64,000 bases of DNA from a virus. Its lineage: Duplodnaviria; Caudoviricetes. Below are positions 35,892 to 45,982 of the stretch, one piece after another. The first letter of the stretch is position 1; every line of letters starts with the position of its first letter. The translations under genes were made by a program, and so were the position numbers. Location of the stretch: the IMG/VR virus record IMGVR_UViG_3300032093_000005; one strand, written 5' to 3'. Below the pieces are notes generated by a model. That model did not search any database. It had not been told where the DNA came from and was given only the letters and a program-made list of their open reading frames with translations.

Positions 35892-36824
35892 TCAAAGCAA
35901 GTTTTTCTTATACCACTCATACGTTTGAGTGATTCCTTGACGAAGTTCAACTTGAGGTTCCCAACCAAGAGATTTAATTTTATCTACATTTAAAACTTTA
36001 CGGGGAGTTCCATTTGGTTTTGTTGTGTCCCAATTAATATCATGTTCATAACCAACAATATCAGCAATTGTTTCTGCTAATTGTTTAATAGTTACATCCT
36101 CACCCGTTCCAATATTAATATGTTCTTCACCTTCATAGTTTTGCATACAAATGAAACATGCTTCGGCAAGATCATCAACATATAGAAACTCGCGCATTGC
36201 TGATCCATCTCCCCACAATTTGACCTCCCAGTATTTACTATGGTTTAAAGCAGAATGAAACTTAGCAAGCATCGCAGGAAGAACATGAGATGTTTCTAAA
36301 TTAAAGTTATCATAAGGTCCATAAAGATTGGTTGGCATCAGTGAGATTGCATTAAATCCATATTGTCTCCGATACGCCTGACACATTTTAATTCCAGCAA
36401 TCTTTGCAATCGCATAAGAATCATTTGTCGTTTCTAGAGGTCCGGTAAGAAGTTGATCTTCTGTAATTGGAAGATTTGGATATTTTGGATAAATGCAAGA
36501 AGATCCTAGAAAGAGTAGTTTTTTTATTCCAAAATTATAAGATGTATTGATAATATTTGATTGAATCATCAAATTATCATATATGAAATTGGCAGGATAA
36601 GTTTTATTTGCCATAATTCCACCTGCTTTGGCAGCGGCAAGAAAAACATATTCCGGTTCCTCAGAACAAAAATAACGCTCAACTTCACCTTGATTTCTAA
36701 AATCAACATCATCACGAGTACCTTTGATGATATTAGTATATCCCTTCCCTTCAAGGTTTCTGACAATTGCCCTACCAACCATTCCGTTAGCACCGGCAAC
36801 TAAAATTCTAGAATTGTTTTTCAT
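35892..36824 (-). CDS. fcl: GDP-L-fucose synthase
   Basis: [33 protein letters not shown]. Confidence 0.95.
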
Positions 36825-37818
36825 TAGTACACATATCCTCAACTAATTGTTCGAAAGAAATTTTAGGTTCCCAACCTAATTTTTGTTTTGCTTTTGTATA
36901 ATCTCCAAGAAGAGAATCTACTTCTGCTGGACGAAAATACTTTGGATCTACCATAATACGAACTAGTCCCGTATTTGTATCAATCCCAATCTCAGTTCCT
37001 TTATCTGTGAACTGCCATTCAATGTTCATTCCAAAATAAGGTGCTGCCATCTCAACAAACTGACGGACAGAATATTGTTTTCCAGTAGCAATCACATAAT
37101 CATCTGGTTCTTTTTGTTGTAGCATAATCCACATTGCTTCAACATAATCCTTAGCGTGTCCCCAATCACGCTTAGCATCAAGGTTACCTAACTTGAGAAC
37201 TGTCTGTTTTTCTTCAGATAATGCCTTAAATCCTTTAGTAATTTTACGGGTTACAAATGTTTCTCCTCTTCTAGGAGATTCGTGATTAAAAAGGATACCT
37301 GTACAAGCATACATTCCATATGCTTCACGATAGTTCTTAGTAATCCAGTATGCGTATAGTTTTGCTACCCCATAAGGAGAGCGGGGATAAAAAGGAGTAG
37401 TTTCACGTTGAGGAACTTCTTGAACAAGACCATAAAGTTCGCTTGTAGAAGCTTGATAGATGCGAACACGATCTTCCATACCCAATAAACGCACTGCTTC
37501 AAGAACCCGAAGAGTACCCATACCATCCACATCAGCAGTGTATTCAGGCATCTCAAAGGATACTTTGACGTGACTCTGAGCACCAAGATTATAAATTTCA
37601 TCTGGTTGAACTTTTTGAATAACTCTAACTATATTAGTTGAATCTGTTAAATCTCCATAATGTAATTTAATATTTTGAAATATATGATCAATACGATAAG
37701 TATTGATCATAGAAGAACGTCTAATGATGCCATGAACTTCATATCCTTTTTCCAAAAGAAATTCAGCAAGATATGATCCATCTTGTCCAGTAATACCTGT
37801 AATTAGAGCAACTTTCAT
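36808..37818 (-). CDS. gmd: GDP-mannose 4,6-dehydratase
   Basis: [30 protein letters not shown]. Confidence 0.97.
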
Positions 37819-38747
37819 TATTTTAAAATTAATTTTTTATACCACTCAATTGTTTTATCTAAACCATCTTCGAAAGAAACTCTAGGAGACCAACCAAGTT
37901 GATTTTTAATTTTAGATATATCTGTTGAATAACGACGATCATGTCCAGGTCTATCATTTACATATTCTATCATGTCATCCCCCATATTCATATGATTCAA
38001 TATAGAGCGAACAAGATCGATATTTTTCATCTCACAATTTCCACCTATATTATATTTTTGCCCCTCTTTCCCCTTTAACCATACTTCAATCAATGCTTCA
38101 CAATGATCCTGGACATATAACCAATCACGAATTTGTTGCCCATCACCATAGACAGGAACCTTTTTACCAGACAGCAGATTAGTTATAGCTTTAGGAATCA
38201 TTTTTTCTTGATATTGTCTAGGACCATAGTTATTTGAACAATTTGTAATTATTGTAGACAAACCATAAGTGTTGTGATATGCCATTACAAAATGATCACT
38301 TGCTGCCTTTGATGCTGAGTATGGATTTCTAGGAGAATAGTTAGAATTTTCTGTGAAGTATCCTTCTTCAATTGATCCATAAACTTCATCGGTGGAAATA
38401 TGAATGAACTTTCCAACTTCATATTTCAAAGCAAGATTCAATAGATTAACAGTTCCACTAATATTGGCGTGAATAAATGGTGAGCAATCTTCTATTGAAT
38501 TATCTACATGACTTTCTGCGGCAAAATGAAAGACAGTTGAAGGTTTATATTTTTTAAACACAAACTCACAACTATGTTTATCTGCAATATCCGTAGTGTA
38601 TAATTTAACAGGATCTGGAATATTATGCCAATCGGCAGCATAAGTTAAATTATCAATACAAATAATTTCTTCTGTTGTACATTTAATAAGATGATGAAGA
38701 AAATTACTGCCTATAAATCCTGCACCACCTGTAACTAATATAGTCAT
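37818..38747 (-). CDS. rfbB: dTDP-glucose 4,6-dehydratase
   Basis: [31 protein letters not shown]. Confidence 0.93.
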
Positions 38748-39235
38748 TTTTGACCGTACCTTTCTAGAAGTTCTGGAGAATATTGTTGAATATCTTTTAT
38801 ATTTTTTTCTTCTCTTTTAGCATTCTCAAGATCATAAACTCTATTTCTAAGTTCTGTAGTTGAATATTGATGTCTTCTCATATGATAATGAATTTCTATA
38901 CCATTATCAATGCAGTATTGTTTTCCAGTAACTTCAACATCTCTATATTCTTCACTCAAAAAACGAATGTGAAAAGTTTGAGTCTTGATAAGATTTAAGA
39001 GATCTGCTTCAGTATCGTAAACAAGAATTTCATCCACATATTTACACGCCTGTACCTGAGCATATCTTTCGTAGATAGACTGTACTGGTTTATTTTTTAA
39101 ACCAGGTCTATCTATAGTAGGATCAACTTGAAGTGCTACTTTTAAATAATCGCACATTTCCTTTTCCATTTTGAGCATTGTAACATGTCCAGCATGAAAA
39201 AGATCAAAACAACTACAATTAAATCCGATTTTCAT
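38744..39235 (-). CDS. TagD-like cytidylyltransferase
   Basis: FDLFHAGH..YVDE..YSTTELR. Confidence 0.85.
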   Translation of the reverse strand: MKIGFNCSCFDLFHAGHVTMLKMEKEMCDYLKVALQVDPTIDRPGLKNKPVQSIYERYAQVQACKYVDEILVYDTEADLLNLIKTQTFHIRFLSEEYRDVEVTGKQYCIDNGIEIHYHMRRHQYSTTELRNRVYDLENAKREEKNIKDIQQYSPELLERYGQK

Positions 39236-39254
39236 ACGAATATACTTTTTTATC

Positions 39255-39292
39255 ATTATACTAAAAAAGGTGGGTTTATGCAACCCACCTTT
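39255..39292 (-). promoter_or_regulatory. Terminator hairpin overlapping promoter TTGCAT-N17-TATAAT for the sugar cluster
   Basis: AAAGGTGGGT/ACCCACCTTT stem plus T run; spacing counted. Confidence 0.65.
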
Positions 39293-40674: not shown

Positions 40675-40824
40675 TTATTTATGTTTTTTGTCAAGCGGTT
40701 CCCAGTGCTGCCAGTTGTATTTATGAATTGCCCAGATACCCATAATCGGTGGAACAATCAAAAGATAACAAATAATTCCCAAAGTAAAAGGAGTTTCTAA
40801 TACCCACCTTGAAAAATGTAACAT
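40675..40824 (-). CDS. Small membrane protein MLHFSRWVLETP (49 aa)
   Basis: Hand translation; coupled to the upstream stop. Confidence 0.6.
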   Translation of the reverse strand: MLHFSRWVLETPFTLGIICYLLIVPPIMGIWAIHKYNWQHWEPLDKKHK

Positions 40825-41021
40825 CAATATCCTCTCCAAGTTTTAAACTCATAATAAAAATACTGATCAACAATCCAATTATCTAATGGAGCATTCTCTT
40901 CTCTTTGTGCCCATTCAATACAAAAATCTACAATCTTATGATCATTCAATGATTTGTGCCCCCACATTCTTACAAATGCAGAGGCTGCAAAGTGATATTT
41001 TTGTTTAATGTGCGGTCCCAT
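40824..41021 (-). CDS. Hypothetical protein (65 aa)
   Basis: ORF-track frame with start moved to limit overlap with ndhP. Confidence 0.55.
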   Translation of the reverse strand: MGPHIKQKYHFAASAFVRMWGHKSLNDHKIVDFCIEWAQREENAPLDNWIVDQYFYYEFKTWRGY

Positions 41022-41127
41022 TTCCCTTATAATCTTTGGAGTCATAATATCCTCCTCGTGTTCCGAAGTAGAGTGTTGATAAAACAAACGGGATTGAAAC
41101 GAATAGAAGTGCTTTTGCTAATAACAT
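41005..41127 (-). CDS. ndhP: NDH-1 subunit NdhP (40 aa)
   Basis: Hand translation MLLAKALLFVSIPFVLSTLYFGTRGGYYDSKDYKGNGTAH; FGTR.G.YD...Y.GNG.AH signature. Confidence 0.85.
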   Translation of the reverse strand: MLLAKALLFVSIPFVLSTLYFGTRGGYYDSKDYKGNGTAH

Positions 41128-41294
41128 TATAAAAACATTCCTGGTTTATAATCTACTATTTGTTGAATCTCATCAAGTAGTGCTCCATACTCTTTAAACT
41201 TTCTATCTCCTGCAATAAAATGTCTTTGTCTTATCCAAACAGCATCTGCAAGTAGTTTCAGTTCATACTCCGATAAATCTTTAAAACGTTCCAT
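41127..41294 (-). CDS. Small hypothetical protein MERFKDLSEYELKLL (55 aa)
   Basis: Hand translation; RBS; TAATG coupling to ndhP. Confidence 0.65.
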   Translation of the reverse strand: MERFKDLSEYELKLLADAVWIRQRHFIAGDRKFKEYGALLDEIQQIVDYKPGMFL

Positions 41295-41306
41295 TGTAAA
41301 TCTCCT

Positions 41307-42329
41307 TTATCTAACGTGATGACCACCAAACATATAACGCATCCCGTTCAAGATTTTTGCTCCGAATGATCCGAGATTGCGTGAGTTAAATCTTTCAAAT
41401 AGGGCAGTAGTAATGACAGGAGCGGGAACCCCCAAATCCACAGCGGCAGAAACAGTCCAACGACCCTCACCGCTATCGGAAACTCCACCAGAGAAGCGTT
41501 TAAGGCTACCATCCCTGCGTAGCACATCAGCAGTAAGATCAAGTAACCAACTACCAACCACGCTACCACGACGCCATAACTCAGCAACCTCAGCAACATC
41601 AATATCGTAGCAATAGGATTCTGGGTCTGCCATTGGTGCAACTTCTGCGTCTCCTTCTCTGACATACTGAGCACCTAGATTAGCGTTCTTCAAAATATTG
41701 AATCCTTCTGCATATGCCTGCATAATGCCATATTCAATTCCATTGTGAACCATTTTTACAAAGTGTCCTGCACCAGGGCCACCACAATGCAACCAACCAA
41801 ACTCCGCAGAGGTTACGTCCGAGTCAAACTGAGTCCTCGGGGCAGCGGTGATTCCTGGAGCGAGGGCATCAAAAATCCTTGCACAAGTGGCGACCGCAGT
41901 ATTTCCGCCACCAACCATAAGACAGTATCCACGATCCAAACCATAAACACCACCGCTAGTGCCACAATCAATATATTGGATACCAAGTTTTGCCAGGCGT
42001 TCTGCTCTTTTCCGACTGTCTTTAAAATTGCTATTGCCATGATCAATAATAATATCTCCTTCACCACAATATCGTAGTAACTCATTGATTGTCTCCTCTA
42101 CTGTTTCTGCAGGAACAACCATTTGGAAGATACCTGGTTGTTTTCCATCTTTTACTATTTGAACAAGGCTTTGTATAGAAGTTGTAACACCATTAACATA
42201 TCCGTTTTCATATGCTTCTTGTGCCTTTTCATAATTTCTTCTGTATCCCCAAACTTCTATACCTGCTTTCATCATACGGCGAGACATACCTTCGCCCATT
42301 CTTCCAAGTCCAATTAATCCTACTTTCAT
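41307..42329 (-). CDS. gnd: 6-phosphogluconate dehydrogenase (short type)
   Basis: GLGRMG, IDHGNS, GTSGG, KMVHNGIEYG, DSGEGRW. Confidence 0.97.
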   Translation of the reverse strand: MKVGLIGLGRMGEGMSRRMMKAGIEVWGYRRNYEKAQEAYENGYVNGVTTSIQSLVQIVKDGKQPGIFQMVVPAETVEETINELLRYCGEGDIIIDHGNSNFKDSRKRAERLAKLGIQYIDCGTSGGVYGLDRGYCLMVGGGNTAVATCARIFDALAPGITAAPRTQFDSDVTSAEFGWLHCGGPGAGHFVKMVHNGIEYGIMQAYAEGFNILKNANLGAQYVREGDAEVAPMADPESYCYDIDVAEVAELWRRGSVVGSWLLDLTADVLRRDGSLKRFSGGVSDSGEGRWTVSAAVDLGVPAPVITTALFERFNSRNLGSFGAKILNGMRYMFGGHHVR

Positions 42330-42337
42330 ATATTCTC

Positions 42338-42430
42338 CTATTGTGGATATGCGTTGTTAAGTCCCCATACAACAAAAAATCCAATCGTACCAAAAATAGT
42401 TAATGCGCTAAAAAGTAAATTAGTATTCAT
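42338..42430 (-). CDS. NdhQ-like small membrane protein (30 aa)
   Basis: Hand translation MNTNLLFSALTIFGTIGFFVVWGLNNAYPQ; ungapped match to recalled NdhQ SAVLILGFIAGLIWWALHTAY. Confidence 0.55.
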   Translation of the reverse strand: MNTNLLFSALTIFGTIGFFVVWGLNNAYPQ

Positions 42431-42533
42431 CATCATCCTCATAAGTTGATGGTTCTTCAAATAGTTCATCTAACTTTTGCTGTAAAACTCTTTCTTGAAG
42501 TTCTTGTAGGTCTTTGTCTGTTAAAACTATCAT
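42420..42533 (-). CDS. Small acidic protein MIVLTDKDLQELQ (37 aa)
   Basis: Hand translation, operon packing. Confidence 0.55.
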   Translation of the reverse strand: MIVLTDKDLQELQERVLQQKLDELFEEPSTYEDDDEY

Positions 42534-42709
42534 TTGTCCTTTAATAGTTCCTCCACTCTTTTACGCATATTAGTACTATCTTGTTTGAGATAATCCCTCA
42601 AAGAATAACCACGCCGTCCACGCATAATACAAGTGCCTTGATAAAACATCGTGGCAGCAAACACCAACAGAAAAGCAATGCCAATTATTTCAGAGTAATG
42701 TTGAGCCAT
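42530..42709 (-). CDS. Small membrane protein MAQHYSEIIG (59 aa)
   Basis: Hand translation, ATGA coupling. Confidence 0.55.
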   Translation of the reverse strand: MAQHYSEIIGIAFLLVFAATMFYQGTCIMRGRRGYSLRDYLKQDSTNMRKRVEELLKDK

Positions 42710-42888
42710 GGAAGCAATGGTGGGATAACTCCAATCAACCTTAAAAGTCCCTCAGCAAATAAAGCAAGAACCACCCAACCGACGCACATACTAATGATGC
42801 TAGCATTACGGTTGTGTCGTCGTATTGCTGCATCGATCATCTCCTTAACTTCGGAACGGGTTACATAATCATCATCAAAAGGTTCCAT
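42685..42888 (-). CDS. Hypothetical membrane protein (67 aa)
   Basis: ORF track. Confidence 0.65.
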   Translation of the reverse strand: MEPFDDDYVTRSEVKEMIDAAIRRHNRNASIISMCVGWVVLALFAEGLLRLIGVIPPLLPWLNITLK

Positions 42889-43037
42889 CATTTCTCATCT
42901 CCAAGAAACTTCGCAAGAGGATCTCTCCTCGTTTTGACTATTTCAACTGCTCTCTTGTAGAACATATTATCTGTGTTCCCAGAGGCTTCAAAAGTTTCCT
43001 TGATCTTCACCCAATTGTCGTAGGTGTGCTGATCCAT
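42888..43037 (-). CDS. Small hypothetical protein MDQHTYDNWVKIK (49 aa)
   Basis: Hand translation; promoter-like TTGACA upstream. Confidence 0.6.
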   Translation of the reverse strand: MDQHTYDNWVKIKETFEASGNTDNMFYKRAVEIVKTRRDPLAKFLGDEK

Positions 43038-43521: not shown

Positions 43522-43956
43522 TTATTCAGTAAATGATCTCAAAAACCAAACAAACTTTCCGTGTGCCTCATTGAGATCATCAAGTAAATTTGTTGTACCT
43601 CTTGAATTAAGTTCTTCTGCGATCTTTGCTGCTTCTCCAAACATTTCAATTATTGTAGTATGACATTTCAAGAGATCTTTAATCATCTCCATTTCAGAGA
43701 GACCACTTTTTGCTTCTGATACTCTGGATACTTCTGCAACTCTTGAGAGAGCACTAACTGGTTTAGCACCAAGAAATCTCATATGCTCGGAGATTCTATC
43801 AATCTCTTCAAAGAGTGCAGTATATTGCTCACCAAACATTGTATGAACTTGATAGAAATCAGGTCCAGTAATATGCCAATGATATACCCAAGTCTTTTGG
43901 AAAAGTACAAAAAGACTTGCTTGAGTATCAGAAAGTATTTTATATAGTTTTTCCAT
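43522..43956 (-). CDS. dps: Dps-family ferritin-like protein
   Basis: HWHITGPDFYQVH..EQY..IDRISEH ferroxidase residues; HGKFVWFL. Confidence 0.92.
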   Translation of the reverse strand: MEKLYKILSDTQASLFVLFQKTWVYHWHITGPDFYQVHTMFGEQYTALFEEIDRISEHMRFLGAKPVSALSRVAEVSRVSEAKSGLSEMEMIKDLLKCHTTIIEMFGEAAKIAEELNSRGTTNLLDDLNEAHGKFVWFLRSFTE

Positions 43957-44464: not shown

Positions 44465-45982
44465 TCAGAACGTAAACTTCGTCTGAATCACACCACCATA
44501 GTTGGAAGATGCACCAGCAAATGCCTGATTGTTAGAGGCATAGAACACTGCAGGAGTTACAGTGATATTGTCGGACACCTTATACTTGTAGAAGACTTCC
44601 CACATCGTTGCATCCTTATCCAGTCCTTCCGCGTTACCAGGTTGACCGATGGCGAAACCAGCAGAGTTACCCTTAGCAAACACATTAGACCACTGGAGAC
44701 CAGCATACCAAGTCTGTGAATCGGTAGCACCAGCAGGAGTTGCCTGACCTGCTGCATCCAGACTTACGGTGTTCCAACCATAACCAGCACTCACAGAAGG
44801 AATGATACCAGAAGTCTTGGGTTGCCAATAAGCACTCAGGGCATAACCATTAGAGGTTTGTCCAGGAGCAAGGGCACCAGACTTACCAGCAAGTGCGTTG
44901 AAAGTACGAACACGAGTACCTTCAGTACCATAACGGTAACCGAATGCAGCACCCCACTGAGGAGCACGATAACCAATTTGCGCCAGAGTATTCAGAGCAC
45001 CAGATTCGTTGAACTCACCTTTGGTGGAATCACCACCATTTTGAGCAACATAGTTCACACCAGCAACGAAACCACCTTTACCTTTCTTGGTAGGTTGTGC
45101 CCACTGAGCACCGAAACCAGCACCAGTTGCTTTGTTATAAACACCAGGAGCACCAGCAAGTTGGAAGAAATCAAGGATTTCAGACTTATATGCGGTAGGA
45201 ACCCAAGTCATCTCAGTGTTGCGAACCAGAGCACCAGCAGTCAGAGTTACACCCTTAGCAAGTGCAGGGAACTGGTAGTAAAGGCGGTCAAGAGTAACTG
45301 CGTTTGCAGTGCTCTCTGCCTTATCCAGTTTGAACAGGGAAGAAGATGAACCGAAGGGTTGACTGGAGAAGTTACCCGAACGCAGACGAGTGCGGAGCAG
45401 GTCTTTACCAGTGAACGAAGTATCAAAGTTCAGACGGAGATCGTAGTTGAATGCAGTGTTACCAACATTCGTGCTAGCAGGAGCCTTGGAAGTACCAGGA
45501 GTCCAAGCATTATCTACACCACCAAGAACAAAGTTTACTTCACCTTTCAGTTTAGTGGTAGTAGAGAAACGGGTTGCTTCCAGAGCACCCACTTTTGCTT
45601 CCAGAGTAGATACACGACCACGAATCACGGCAAGTTCATCAGAGAACTCGTTAGCAAGACGCTTCAGTTCATCAGTAACTTCAGTCACACGGTCAAGGCA
45701 AGCATTCAGAAGTGCTGCTGCCTCATAACGGGACATTGCCTTACCACCAGCAAAAGTGCCGTTGGGGTAACCAGCAACGCAACCATAACGCTCTACAAGG
45801 TTGCTGAGTGCCTGATATGCCCAATCAGTGGGTTGCACATCAGAAAGTTGTGAGACACTTGTAACCTGCTCAGTGGAAGAGTACTGGTTGACTGCTGCCA
45901 TATTAAGGTCTGCGGCATTCGCAGCAACAGGAGCAACCATTCCCAGAGCAACAGGTGCAAGCATCAGTTGTTTGAGTTTCAT
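44465..45982 (-). CDS. Cyanobacterial outer-membrane porin (SLH plus OprB-like barrel, SomA/B type)
   Basis: Signal peptide, SDVQPTDWAYQAL SLH motif, FSTTTKLKGEV, terminal QTKFTF. Confidence 0.93.
   Translation of the reverse strand: MKLKQLMLAPVALGMVAPVAANAADLNMAAVNQYSSTEQVTSVSQLSDVQPTDWAYQALSNLVERYGCVAGYPNGTFAGGKAMSRYEAAALLNACLDRVTEVTDELKRLANEFSDELAVIRGRVSTLEAKVGALEATRFSTTTKLKGEVNFVLGGVDNAWTPGTSKAPASTNVGNTAFNYDLRLNFDTSFTGKDLLRTRLRSGNFSSQPFGSSSSLFKLDKAESTANAVTLDRLYYQFPALAKGVTLTAGALVRNTEMTWVPTAYKSEILDFFQLAGAPGVYNKATGAGFGAQWAQPTKKGKGGFVAGVNYVAQNGGDSTKGEFNESGALNTLAQIGYRAPQWGAAFGYRYGTEGTRVRTFNALAGKSGALAPGQTSNGYALSAYWQPKTSGIIPSVSAGYGWNTVSLDAAGQATPAGATDSQTWYAGLQWSNVFAKGNSAGFAIGQPGNAEGLDKDATMWEVFYKYKVSDNITVTPAVFYASNNQAFAGASSNYGGVIQTKFTF

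What the first reader, a model, noticed from the sequence alone, without database searches (positions are those of the whole stretch)
41005..42430. NdhP and an NdhQ-like micro-ORF flank gnd
Both lie below the ORF-track cutoff. The NdhP signature is clear, and phage ndhP has, as I recall, been noted before. The 30-aa ORF just upstream of gnd aligns without gaps to the NdhQ helix (SA..I.G.I.....W.L..AY) but lacks its N-terminal arm. NdhP and NdhQ are the small subunits associated with NDH-1L (NdhD1/F1). Inference: the phage couples oxidative pentose-phosphate NADPH production to a stabilised or retuned NDH-1L for cyclic/respiratory flow.
Basis: partly seen in the sequence, partly recalled or inferred. 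Interest (0 to 1): 0.75.

Follow-up and report, generated by a model that had tools for sequence, protein, structure and literature searches.

The report
Cyanophage NdhQ and NdhP genes bracketing gnd
A freshwater cyanophage carries tiny copies of both host genes (NdhP, already known in phages, and NdhQ, which I found in no paper) for the two one-helix subunits that clamp the host's NDH-1L energy complex together, and in related phages this gene pair brackets a swappable slot for sugar-oxidation and plastoquinol-oxidase genes.

Summary
Both micro-ORFs are real and sit at the stated coordinates on the minus strand.

- **NdhP.** The 40-aa ORF (41005-41127) matches the solved T. elongatus NdhP chain at E 2.7e-8.
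- **NdhQ.** The 30-aa ORF (42338-42430) belongs to a conserved phage micro-ORF family that ends in WGLxNAYP.
  - A profile of that family hits only NdhQ chains in the whole PDB.
  - It finds a single locus in host picocyanobacterial genomes, and NCBI names that locus's protein NdhQ.
  - It aligns to a canonical NdhQ profile at 96% hhalign probability.
  - In 1.84 billion representative proteins it retrieves, apart from one repetitive 974-aa protein, only phage-type copies and picocyanobacterial NdhQ.
  - It keeps the helix and C-terminal motif but lacks most of the N-terminal arm.
- **Gene order.** In 18 related viral contigs the two genes are directly adjacent. Elsewhere ptoX, gnd, talC or zwf lie between them, so gnd here is a variable insert.
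- **Function (inferred).** The phage supplies both NDH-1L "glue" subunits to keep the NdhD1/NdhF1 module attached during infection.
This is not supported, because NDH-1L takes electrons from ferredoxin.

Phage ndhP is published. No searchable paper mentions a phage ndhQ. This scan reached the same reading earlier on another genome.

The parts
42338..42430 (-). ndhQ-like micro-gene. It encodes 30 aa: one transmembrane helix ending in the motif VWGLNNAYP plus one residue.
   Evidence: - ORF and start.
- Phage family alignments A1 and A6.
- Its only PDB hits are NdhQ chains.
- A single hit in each of two host genomes, at the ndhQ locus.
- hhalign 97.9% against marine NdhQ and 96% against canonical NdhQ.
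- The library-wide search retrieves only this family and picocyanobacterial NdhQ, plus one repetitive outlier.
41307..42329 (-). gnd, 6-phosphogluconate dehydrogenase (340 aa). It is variable cargo between the two ndh micro-genes.
   Evidence: - Pfam NAD_binding_2 and 6PGD; NCBIfam NF007161 at E 6e-114; phrog_1319.
- Absent from this slot in 18 directly adjacent ndhQ-ndhP loci.
41127..41294 (-). 55-aa ORF of unknown function (phrog_2064). It travels with the cassette.
   Evidence: - phrog_2064 at E 1.3e-17.
- Found between ndhQ-like and ndhP or ptoX in relatives.
- No PDB relative.
41005..41127 (-). ndhP, 40 aa. It has one helix plus the C-terminal motif FGTRGGYYD..Y.GNGTAH.
   Evidence: - E 2.7e-8 to chain P of T. 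elongatus NDH-1L, 6khi_P.
- phrog_2173 at E 9e-21.
- tblastn relatives in 386 phage records.
42420..42533 (-). 37-aa upstream ORF whose stop overlaps the ndhQ-like start. It is the last of a conserved chain of small ORFs: 42888-43037, 42685-42891, 42530-42709 and this one.
   Evidence: -.
- The same order, p49-p68-p59-p37-Q, is seen in most IMG/VR relatives.

Best explanation
**Shown**

The phage encodes homologs of both NDH-1L-specific single-helix subunits.
- It has a full-length NdhP.
- It has an N-terminally shortened NdhQ, derived from a picocyanobacterial (Synechococcus/Cyanobium/Prochlorococcus-type) ndhQ.
- The two genes form a conserved pair. In some relatives they are directly adjacent. 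In others they bracket a variable slot that holds ptoX, gnd, talC and/or zwf.

**Inferred**

- Both peptides are made during infection and insert into the thylakoid membrane.
- They occupy the NdhP and NdhQ sites on opposite faces of host NdhD1.
- There they keep the NdhD1/NdhF1 module attached to NDH-1M while host protein synthesis declines.
- That would sustain ferredoxin-driven cyclic and respiratory electron flow, and hence ATP supply, for phage replication.
- The cargo genes in the slot act on the same redox network (NADPH supply, plastoquinol oxidation) but are not mechanistically tied to the pair.
For: **NdhP**
- E 2.7e-8 to the solved NdhP chain, with the whole C-terminal motif kept.

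**NdhQ homology**
- The phage profile A1 hits only NdhQ chains in 177,635 PDB sequences. The best is E 0.014, and the C-termini align.
- A six-frame search of two host genomes gives one strong hit each (E 3.9e-8 and 8.2e-7), in a 39-44 aa ORF between thiE-like and ribF-like genes. A protein 92% identical to that ORF, P0014, is named 'NADH dehydrogenase subunit NdhQ' by NCBI.
- hhalign gives 97.9% probability for phage versus marine NdhQ (E 3.7e-13). It gives 96% for phage versus canonical NdhQ (E 4.1e-9).
- The canonical set is NdhQ by E 7e-24 to 6khi_Q.
- As a negative control, the phage profile versus an NdhP alignment gives 1.4% probability.
- The phage-only profile's best whole-genome hit is the ndhQ locus in 4 of 5 diverse cyanobacteria (same coordinates).
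- An exhaustive HMMER search of 1.84 billion representatives gave 34 hits at E<=1e-3. I read 33 of them: all are 29-37 aa phage-type peptides (three sit at the end of longer called ORFs) or picocyanobacterial NdhQ. The one I did not read is a repetitive 974-aa protein matched in nine short stretches.

**It is a coding gene**
- 28 distinct phage nucleotide versions keep the frame, the start and a stop 1-4 codons after AY.
- Raw pN/pS is 0.53.
- Starts and stops are tightly coupled to the neighbouring genes.

**Pairing with ndhP**
- ndhP starts 4-5 nt after the ndhQ-like stop in 18 IMG/VR loci.
- The pair brackets cargo in the window, Sf-CH3, S-SCSM2R and other loci.

**Known biology**
- NdhP and NdhQ sandwich NdhD1.
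- Single deletions dissociate about half of NDH-1L, and the double deletion dissociates nearly all (PMC6992706, PMC7021789, PMC11794437).

**Predicted complex of the 30-aa peptide with Synechococcus WH7803 NdhD (NU4C_SYNPW)**
- The verdict was weak support: score 0.53, best of 3 controls 0.00.
- The mark was reached by 51 of 78 solved complexes and 2 of 108 mismatched pairs. At 0.60 or under it was reached by only 5 of those 78, and by all 4 mismatches that passed (of 180).
- The runs agree in at least 96% of contacts, and the partner's pLDDT is at least 79.
- A like complex is solved, so the pass may come from memory.
Against: - No direct evidence of translation, membrane insertion or incorporation into NDH-1L.
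- The phage copy lacks the N-terminal arm. That arm is invariant in most cyanobacteria, though already reduced in the host clade, so function could be altered.
- Pfam and NCBIfam returned no match for either peptide, so no curated threshold could be applied.
- The single sequence alone does not reach NdhQ in the PDB.
- E-values for 25-residue hydrophobic matches are fragile.
- ndhQ-like also occurs without ndhP. In five complete genomes of the petE-linked subfamily no ndhP was found, and the positive control worked. ndhP is also far commoner (386 records versus about 30 by tblastn). The two are therefore not an obligate pair.
- The complex prediction gave only weak support.
Confidence: 0.62

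Rival explanations
1. Remodelling or interference. The N-terminally shortened NdhQ competes with host NdhQ for its site on NdhD1. That would weaken or retune NDH-1L, for example by shifting the balance between NDH-1L and the CO2-uptake forms, rather than stabilising it.
For: - The phage copy lacks the arm that is invariant in canonical NdhQ.
- The truncation is conserved across the whole phage family.
- ndhQ-like occurs without ndhP in some complete genomes.
Against: - It is paired with a full-length, motif-complete ndhP, whose only known role is stabilisation (PMC4131877, PMC11794437).
- The host clade's own NdhQ has already lost most of the canonical arm, so the arm is not essential there.
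- The conserved residues are in the helix and C-terminal motif, the part retained.
Confidence: 0.13
2. gnd and the two ndh micro-genes form one functional unit that channels oxidative pentose-phosphate NADPH into NDH-1L.
For: - The genes are tightly packed and translationally coupled in this window.
- The same Q-gnd-p55-P order recurs in L042 and, with ptoX added, in L097 and L098.
- The cargo genes all touch NADPH or the plastoquinone pool.
Against: - 18 relatives have the pair with nothing between. Others have ptoX only (L014; with p55 in L094), or talC or zwf as well.
- The NDH-1L donor is ferredoxin, not NADPH (PMC6992706).
- Many phages have gnd with ndhP but no detectable ndhQ-like gene.
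Confidence: 0.15
3. A conserved phage membrane micropeptide of unrelated function, whose likeness to NdhQ is convergent or a chance similarity between hydrophobic helices.
For: - The match is short (about 25 residues) and hydrophobic.
- The best PDB E-value is only 0.014.
- No curated family model exists to apply.
Against: - NdhQ is the only PDB hit.
- There is a single genomic hit per host genome.
- The library-wide search is nearly exclusive to this family and NdhQ.
- The C-terminal register is identical.
- The clade-specific WGLxNAYP signature is shared with picocyanobacterial NdhQ.
- It is linked to ndhP.
- The negative control scored 1.4%.
Confidence: 0.06
4. Not translated: a conserved non-coding or regulatory stretch upstream of gnd.
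For: - Unannotated in most GenBank phage records.
- Below the usual ORF cut-offs.
Against: - Frame, start and stop are conserved across 28 distinct nucleotide versions in different gene contexts.
- pN/pS is below 1.
- It is homologous to a host protein that is resolved in cryo-EM structures.
Confidence: 0.03

Closest known systems
NdhQ, the single-helix oxygenic-photosynthesis-specific subunit of cyanobacterial NDH-1L (chain Q of 6KHI, 6L7O, 6HUM; Nowaczyk et al. 2011)
   Same: - One transmembrane helix.
- The same C-terminal register, W-x-L-x-x-A-Y, at the helix end.
- Profile-level homology.
- Closest to the picocyanobacterial form, which shares WGLxNAYP.
   Different: - 30 aa versus 39 aa in marine hosts and 45-46 aa in other cyanobacteria.
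- The N-terminal arm (MSDLNRGIMKFxGAD in canonical NdhQ, MENGGSES in the host clade) is missing.
- It is phage-encoded.
- Association with NDH-1L is untested.
NdhP, the single-helix NDH-1L subunit (chain P of 6KHI; Synechocystis Sml0013), and its cyanophage copies
   Same: - Full length.
- Complete C-terminal motif.
- E 2.7e-8.
- Phage ndhP is already reported (PMC12801897, PMC10452541).
   Different: Nothing notable. The gene is far more widespread in phage genomes (386 records) than PMC12801897 states ('uncommon'), because it is mostly unannotated and PHROG 2173 is labelled 'unknown function'.
Cyanophage auxiliary metabolic genes of the photosynthetic electron chain and pentose-phosphate pathway (psbA, petE, ptoX, ndhI, ndhD, talC, zwf, gnd, cp12)
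   Same: - A host-derived gene carried in the hypervariable AMG region of T4-like cyanomyophages.
- It neighbours gnd, ptoX, talC, zwf and petE.
   Different: - It is a 30-aa gene below annotation cut-offs.
- Together with ndhP it forms the two borders of a slot in which other AMGs are exchanged.

Membership tests
NdhQ | Significant sequence or profile similarity to experimentally identified NdhQ | tested here: met
   - Phage profile against the PDB: only NdhQ chains are hit, E 0.014.
- hhalign 96% against a canonical NdhQ profile that itself matches 6khi_Q at E 7e-24.
- Library-wide E 2e-5 to 5.5e-4 to picocyanobacterial NdhQ.
- The single sequence alone fails.
NdhQ | Single transmembrane helix ending in the conserved W-x-L-x-x-A-Y motif near the C-terminus | tested here: met
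   W22, L24, A27 and Y28 of the 30-aa peptide align without gaps to W, L, A and Y of T. elongatus NdhQ residues 38-44. The stop follows 2 codons later, as in the hosts.
NdhQ | Conserved N-terminal arm (MSDLNRGIMKFxGAD, invariant in 17 of 17 canonical sequences) | tested here: not met
   The phage family has only 3-8 residues before the helix. The arm is also largely replaced in host picocyanobacterial NdhQ, where only M-x-x-G-S-[DE]-S remains.
NdhQ | Physical subunit of NDH-1L bound to NdhD1 (and NdhF1) | tested here: inconclusive
   Predicted complex with NU4C_SYNPW: weak support, score 0.53 against best control 0.00. A like complex is solved, so the pass may come from memory. No biochemical data.
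NdhQ | Loss destabilises NDH-1L (genetic function) | not testable with these tools
   Needs complementation of an ndhQ deletion, or a phage knock-out.
NdhP | Single helix followed by the C-terminal FGTRxGxYD...Y.GNG.AH motif, with significant similarity to solved NdhP | tested here: met
   E 2.7e-8 to 6khi_P, residues 6-40 against 10-44, with the motif intact.
NdhP | Physical subunit of NDH-1L | not tested

The most novel reading that the evidence does not exclude
The ndhQ-like/ndhP pair is an ancestral two-gene phage module for NDH-1L. It also serves as the fixed border of an exchange slot in which redox AMGs (ptoX, gnd, talC, zwf) are gained and lost. The arm-less phage NdhQ, together with phage NdhP and (in S-SCSM2R) a phage NdhD, builds a phage-specific variant of the distal NDH-1L module with altered stability or regulation, rather than merely replacing host subunits.
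Probability: 0.2. Interest if true: 0.75.

Novelty: new member of a known kind. Interest (0 to 1): 0.6.

Why it matters
- NDH-1L drives cyclic electron flow and respiration, and so the ATP supply of infected cyanobacteria.
- Phages were known to carry ndhP, ndhI and ndhD. A phage ndhQ would mean that some cyanophages encode both of the small subunits that clamp NdhD1. Their joint loss almost abolishes NDH-1L (PMC11794437).
- The gene is missed by annotation in cultured phages, including S-SCSM2R, S-CAM9 and S-MbCM7. AMG inventories therefore undercount it.
- The bracket arrangement gives a concrete, testable picture of how redox AMGs are shuffled at one locus.
- It gives a simple experimental handle, two genes of 30 and 40 codons, for asking whether phages actively maintain cyclic electron flow.

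Tried and rejected
- **Pfam and NCBIfam.** Scans of both micro-ORFs gave nothing useful. No NdhP or NdhQ model matched.
- **Single-sequence PDB search.** phmmer with the 30-aa ORF gave only chance CP43 hits at E>3.
  - With a 43-aa first row it found only two phage-type proteins.
- **NdhP scan of genome contigs.** It returned only two loci. They served as handles to host genomes.
- **tblastn of host NdhQ (P0014) against phages.** No match. The low-complexity filter was on, so this says nothing.
- **Nowaczyk et al. 2011 (PMC3040284).** The paper is not held.
- **RNA evidence.**
  - Four metatranscriptome runs were laid as contigs at 90% likeness.
  - Contigs of relatives cover parts of gnd, the 3' half of the ndhQ-like gene (one bin, run X17) and the 5' part of ndhP.
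  - A loose end at the gnd/ndhQ-like boundary (42327) may read into a p55-type gene.
  - Contigs in RNA libraries do not prove transcription and may contain DNA. This is inconclusive and is not used as support.
- **Neighbouring small ORFs.** The ORFs at 42530-42709, 42685-42891 and 41127-41294 have no credible PDB relatives.
- **Selection estimate.** pN/pS of 0.53 is only weakly informative. Loci were found through the C-terminal motif, and synonymous sites are near saturation.
- **zwf.** Not found in the 96.5-kb genome fragment. The record is about 46% complete, so absence from the phage is not shown.
Full report
**Anatomy**

The window is part of a 96.5-kb fragment of a T4-like cyanomyophage.
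- Its nearest cultured relatives are Synechococcus phages at 75-79% identity over gnd.
- The DNA occurs in freshwater and lake metagenomes.

On the minus strand, a run of tightly packed genes reads as follows:
- Four small ORFs: 42888-43037, 42685-42891, 42530-42709 and 42420-42533.
- The 30-aa ORF at 42338-42430.
- gnd at 41307-42329.
- A 55-aa ORF at 41127-41294.
- The 40-aa ORF at 41005-41127.
- An 87-aa ORF that overlaps the 40-aa ORF's 3' end.

The junctions are tight:
- The 30-aa ORF's ATG overlaps the stop of the preceding ORF.
- Its own stop lies inside an AGGAG, 8 nt before the gnd ATG.
- The 55-aa ORF's stop shares a base with the ndhP ATG.

**NdhP**

- The 40-aa ORF matches chain P of the T. 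elongatus NDH-1L structures at E 2.7e-8 over residues 6-40. The FGTRxGxYD...Y.GNG.AH motif is intact.
- It belongs to phrog_2173, which is labelled 'unknown function'.
- It has tblastn relatives in 386 phage records, often beside gnd or zwf and mostly unannotated.
- Phage ndhP is already reported (PMC12801897, PMC10452541).

**The 30-aa ORF is a conserved gene**

- tblastn finds it in about 30 cultured cyanophage records, nearly always unannotated.
- A motif-restricted scan of IMG/VR gave 51 more loci.
- All copies are 26-34 aa: one hydrophobic helix ending in (F/I)V.WG(L/I/V).(N/H)AYP, with a stop 1-4 codons later.
- 28 distinct phage nucleotide versions keep the frame. Raw pN/pS is 0.53. I treat this as weak, because the loci were found through the motif.
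- Relatives that lack the upstream in-frame ATGs fix the start at 42430.

**It is an NdhQ homolog**

The sequence alone does not reach NdhQ in the PDB. The family profile does. Its only hits among 177,635 PDB sequences are the three NdhQ sequences (E 0.014, 0.037 and 2.5), aligned to the C-terminal helix in the same register.

A six-frame search of a Prochlorococcus genome and a Synechococcus genome with the phage profile gave one strong hit each (E 3.9e-8 and 8.2e-7).
- Each hit is a 39-44 aa ORF between thiE-like and ribF-like genes.
- A protein 92% identical to the Synechococcus ORF (P0014) is named 'NADH dehydrogenase subunit NdhQ [Synechococcus sp. WH 8101]' by NCBI.

Using that marine family (A4) as a query across 121 genomes of the phylum recovered one full-length hit in about 35 genomes.
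- These are the canonical 45-46 aa proteins that begin MSDLNRGIMKF.
- A profile of them (A7) matches 6khi_Q at E 7e-24.

Profile-profile comparisons link the three sets:

| Comparison | hhalign probability |
|---|---|
| Phage vs marine NdhQ | 97.9% (E 3.7e-13) |
| Phage vs canonical NdhQ | 96% (E 4.1e-9) |
| Marine vs canonical NdhQ | 97% |
| Phage vs NdhP alignment (negative control) | 1.4% |

Two further specificity tests agree.
- The phage-only profile's best whole-genome hit is the ndhQ locus in 4 of 5 diverse cyanobacteria.
- An exhaustive HMMER search of 1.84 billion representatives with the phage-only profile gave 34 proteins at E<=1e-3. I read 33 of them. All are phage-type peptides, or picocyanobacterial NdhQ with its MENGGSES-type N-terminus. 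The remaining one is a repetitive 974-aa protein matched in nine short stretches.

The WGLxNAYP signature is shared by the phage family and picocyanobacterial NdhQ. Other cyanobacteria read WALQSAYA instead. This points to a donor in the host clade.

**What differs from NdhQ**

| Form | Length | Residues before the helix |
|---|---|---|
| Canonical NdhQ | 45-46 aa | About 19; the MSDLNRGIMKFxGAD part is invariant in 17 of 17 |
| Host-clade NdhQ | 39 aa | About 11 |
| Phage copy | 30 aa here | About 4 |

The arm is therefore missing, but most of it was already gone in the likely donor.

**Gene neighbourhood**

- In 18 IMG/VR loci the ndhQ-like stop lies 4-5 nt before the ndhP start.
- In other relatives the gap between the two genes holds:
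  - the 55-aa ORF only (L013);
  - ptoX, alone (L014) or with the 55-aa ORF (L094);
  - gnd plus the 55-aa ORF (this window, L042);
  - gnd plus ptoX (L097);
  - talC plus gnd (L043, L044);
  - talC, zwf and gnd (L035, L040).
- In the marine phage S-SCSM2R an unannotated ndhQ-like ORF sits just upstream of talC, and the annotated NdhP lies 5 kb downstream, after zwf and gnd. That phage is also reported to carry ndhD (PMC12801897).
- In S-CAM9, S-MbCM7 and two IMG/VR contigs (L062, L063), ndhP precedes the ndhQ-like ORF by about 0.2-0.4 kb.
- A separate subfamily follows petE. It occurs in genomes where no ndhP was found: 5 of 5 complete genomes searched, and the positive control worked.

The pairing is therefore frequent but not obligate, and gnd is a variable insert rather than a fixed partner.

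**Mechanism**

Published structures place NdhP and NdhQ on opposite faces of NdhD1.
- They contact NdhF1, lipids and beta-carotene (PMC6992706, PMC7021789).
- Single deletions dissociate about half of NDH-1L into NDH-1M, and the double deletion dissociates nearly all (PMC11794437).

The best-supported reading is that the phage supplies both clamps to keep NDH-1L assembled during infection.

A predicted complex of the 30-aa peptide with Synechococcus WH7803 NdhD gave weak support.
- The score was 0.53, and the best of 3 controls was 0.00.
- The mark was reached by 51 of 78 solved complexes and 2 of 108 mismatched pairs.
- At 0.60 or under it was reached by only 5 of those 78, and by all 4 passing mismatches (of 180).
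- The runs agree in at least 96% of contacts, and the partner's pLDDT is at least 79.
- A like complex is solved, so the pass may reflect memory of that structure.

- The complex's donor is ferredoxin (PMC6992706).
- gnd is optional at this site.

A looser link remains plausible: all the cargo genes act on NADPH or the plastoquinone pool.

**Novelty**

- Of the 28 papers in the searchable library that mention NdhQ, none links it to a phage.
- The S-SCSM2R paper lists ndhP and ndhD but not this ORF.
- This scan has met the same arrangement on other genomes, and one follow-up reached the same reading (e1-5377437, and the ptoX-bracketing notes e1-5406631 and e1-5406639). I tested those leads independently here.
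- I class the finding as a new member of a known kind: a phage copy of a known host subunit, in the known category of photosynthetic AMGs. The bracket arrangement is the less expected feature.

Noticed in passing
window 40824-41087 (-) overlapping ndhP 41005-41127 (-): An 87-aa ORF (phrog_593, E 9e-15) starts inside the 3' part of ndhP in another frame. The same overlap is kept in the IMG/VR relatives (p87 hits begin about 40 nt after the ndhP start). The true start and the meaning of the overlap are unclear.
   Followed up: partly
window 44465-45982 (-): A 505-aa ORF has an SLH domain plus an OprB carbohydrate-selective porin domain (Pfam). This is the architecture of cyanobacterial outer-membrane porins, and a porin-like gene is unusual in a phage.
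   Followed up: no
window 43522-43956 (-): A 144-aa ferritin/Dps-like protein (Pfam PF00210, E 3.6e-22). It is conserved upstream of the micro-ORF chain in many relatives.
   Followed up: no
window 36808-39283 (-): A GDP-mannose 4,6-dehydratase, a second epimerase/dehydratase and a cytidylyltransferase-like gene lie in a row. Together they form a sugar-nucleotide module. A GDP-mannose dehydratase is also annotated in DSL-LC03 near its ndhQ-like ORF.
   Followed up: no
window 42420-43037 (-): A chain of four coupled small ORFs (49, 68, 59 and 37 aa; the 59- and 68-aa ones each have a hydrophobic stretch that could be a helix) always precedes the ndhQ-like gene in relatives, in the same order. 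The two largest have no credible PDB relatives. Function unknown.
   Followed up: partly
L006/L099 (Synechococcus phage S-SCSM2R, PQ898602.1 about 182744-182848): An unannotated 34-aa ndhQ-like ORF lies immediately upstream of talC, in a published genome whose paper reports ndhP and ndhD but not this gene.
   Followed up: yes
phage records in general: ndhP-like ORFs are present in 386 phage records but are mostly unannotated or labelled 'hypothetical'. The statement in PMC12801897 that ndhP is uncommon in cyanophages looks like an annotation artefact.
   Followed up: partly
L040:4387-5085 and L035:3323-4024: The zwf ORF called here starts at Pfam G6PD_C position 48 and has no N-terminal NAD-binding domain in the same frame. 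It may be a frameshifted or split zwf, or a mis-set start.
   Followed up: no
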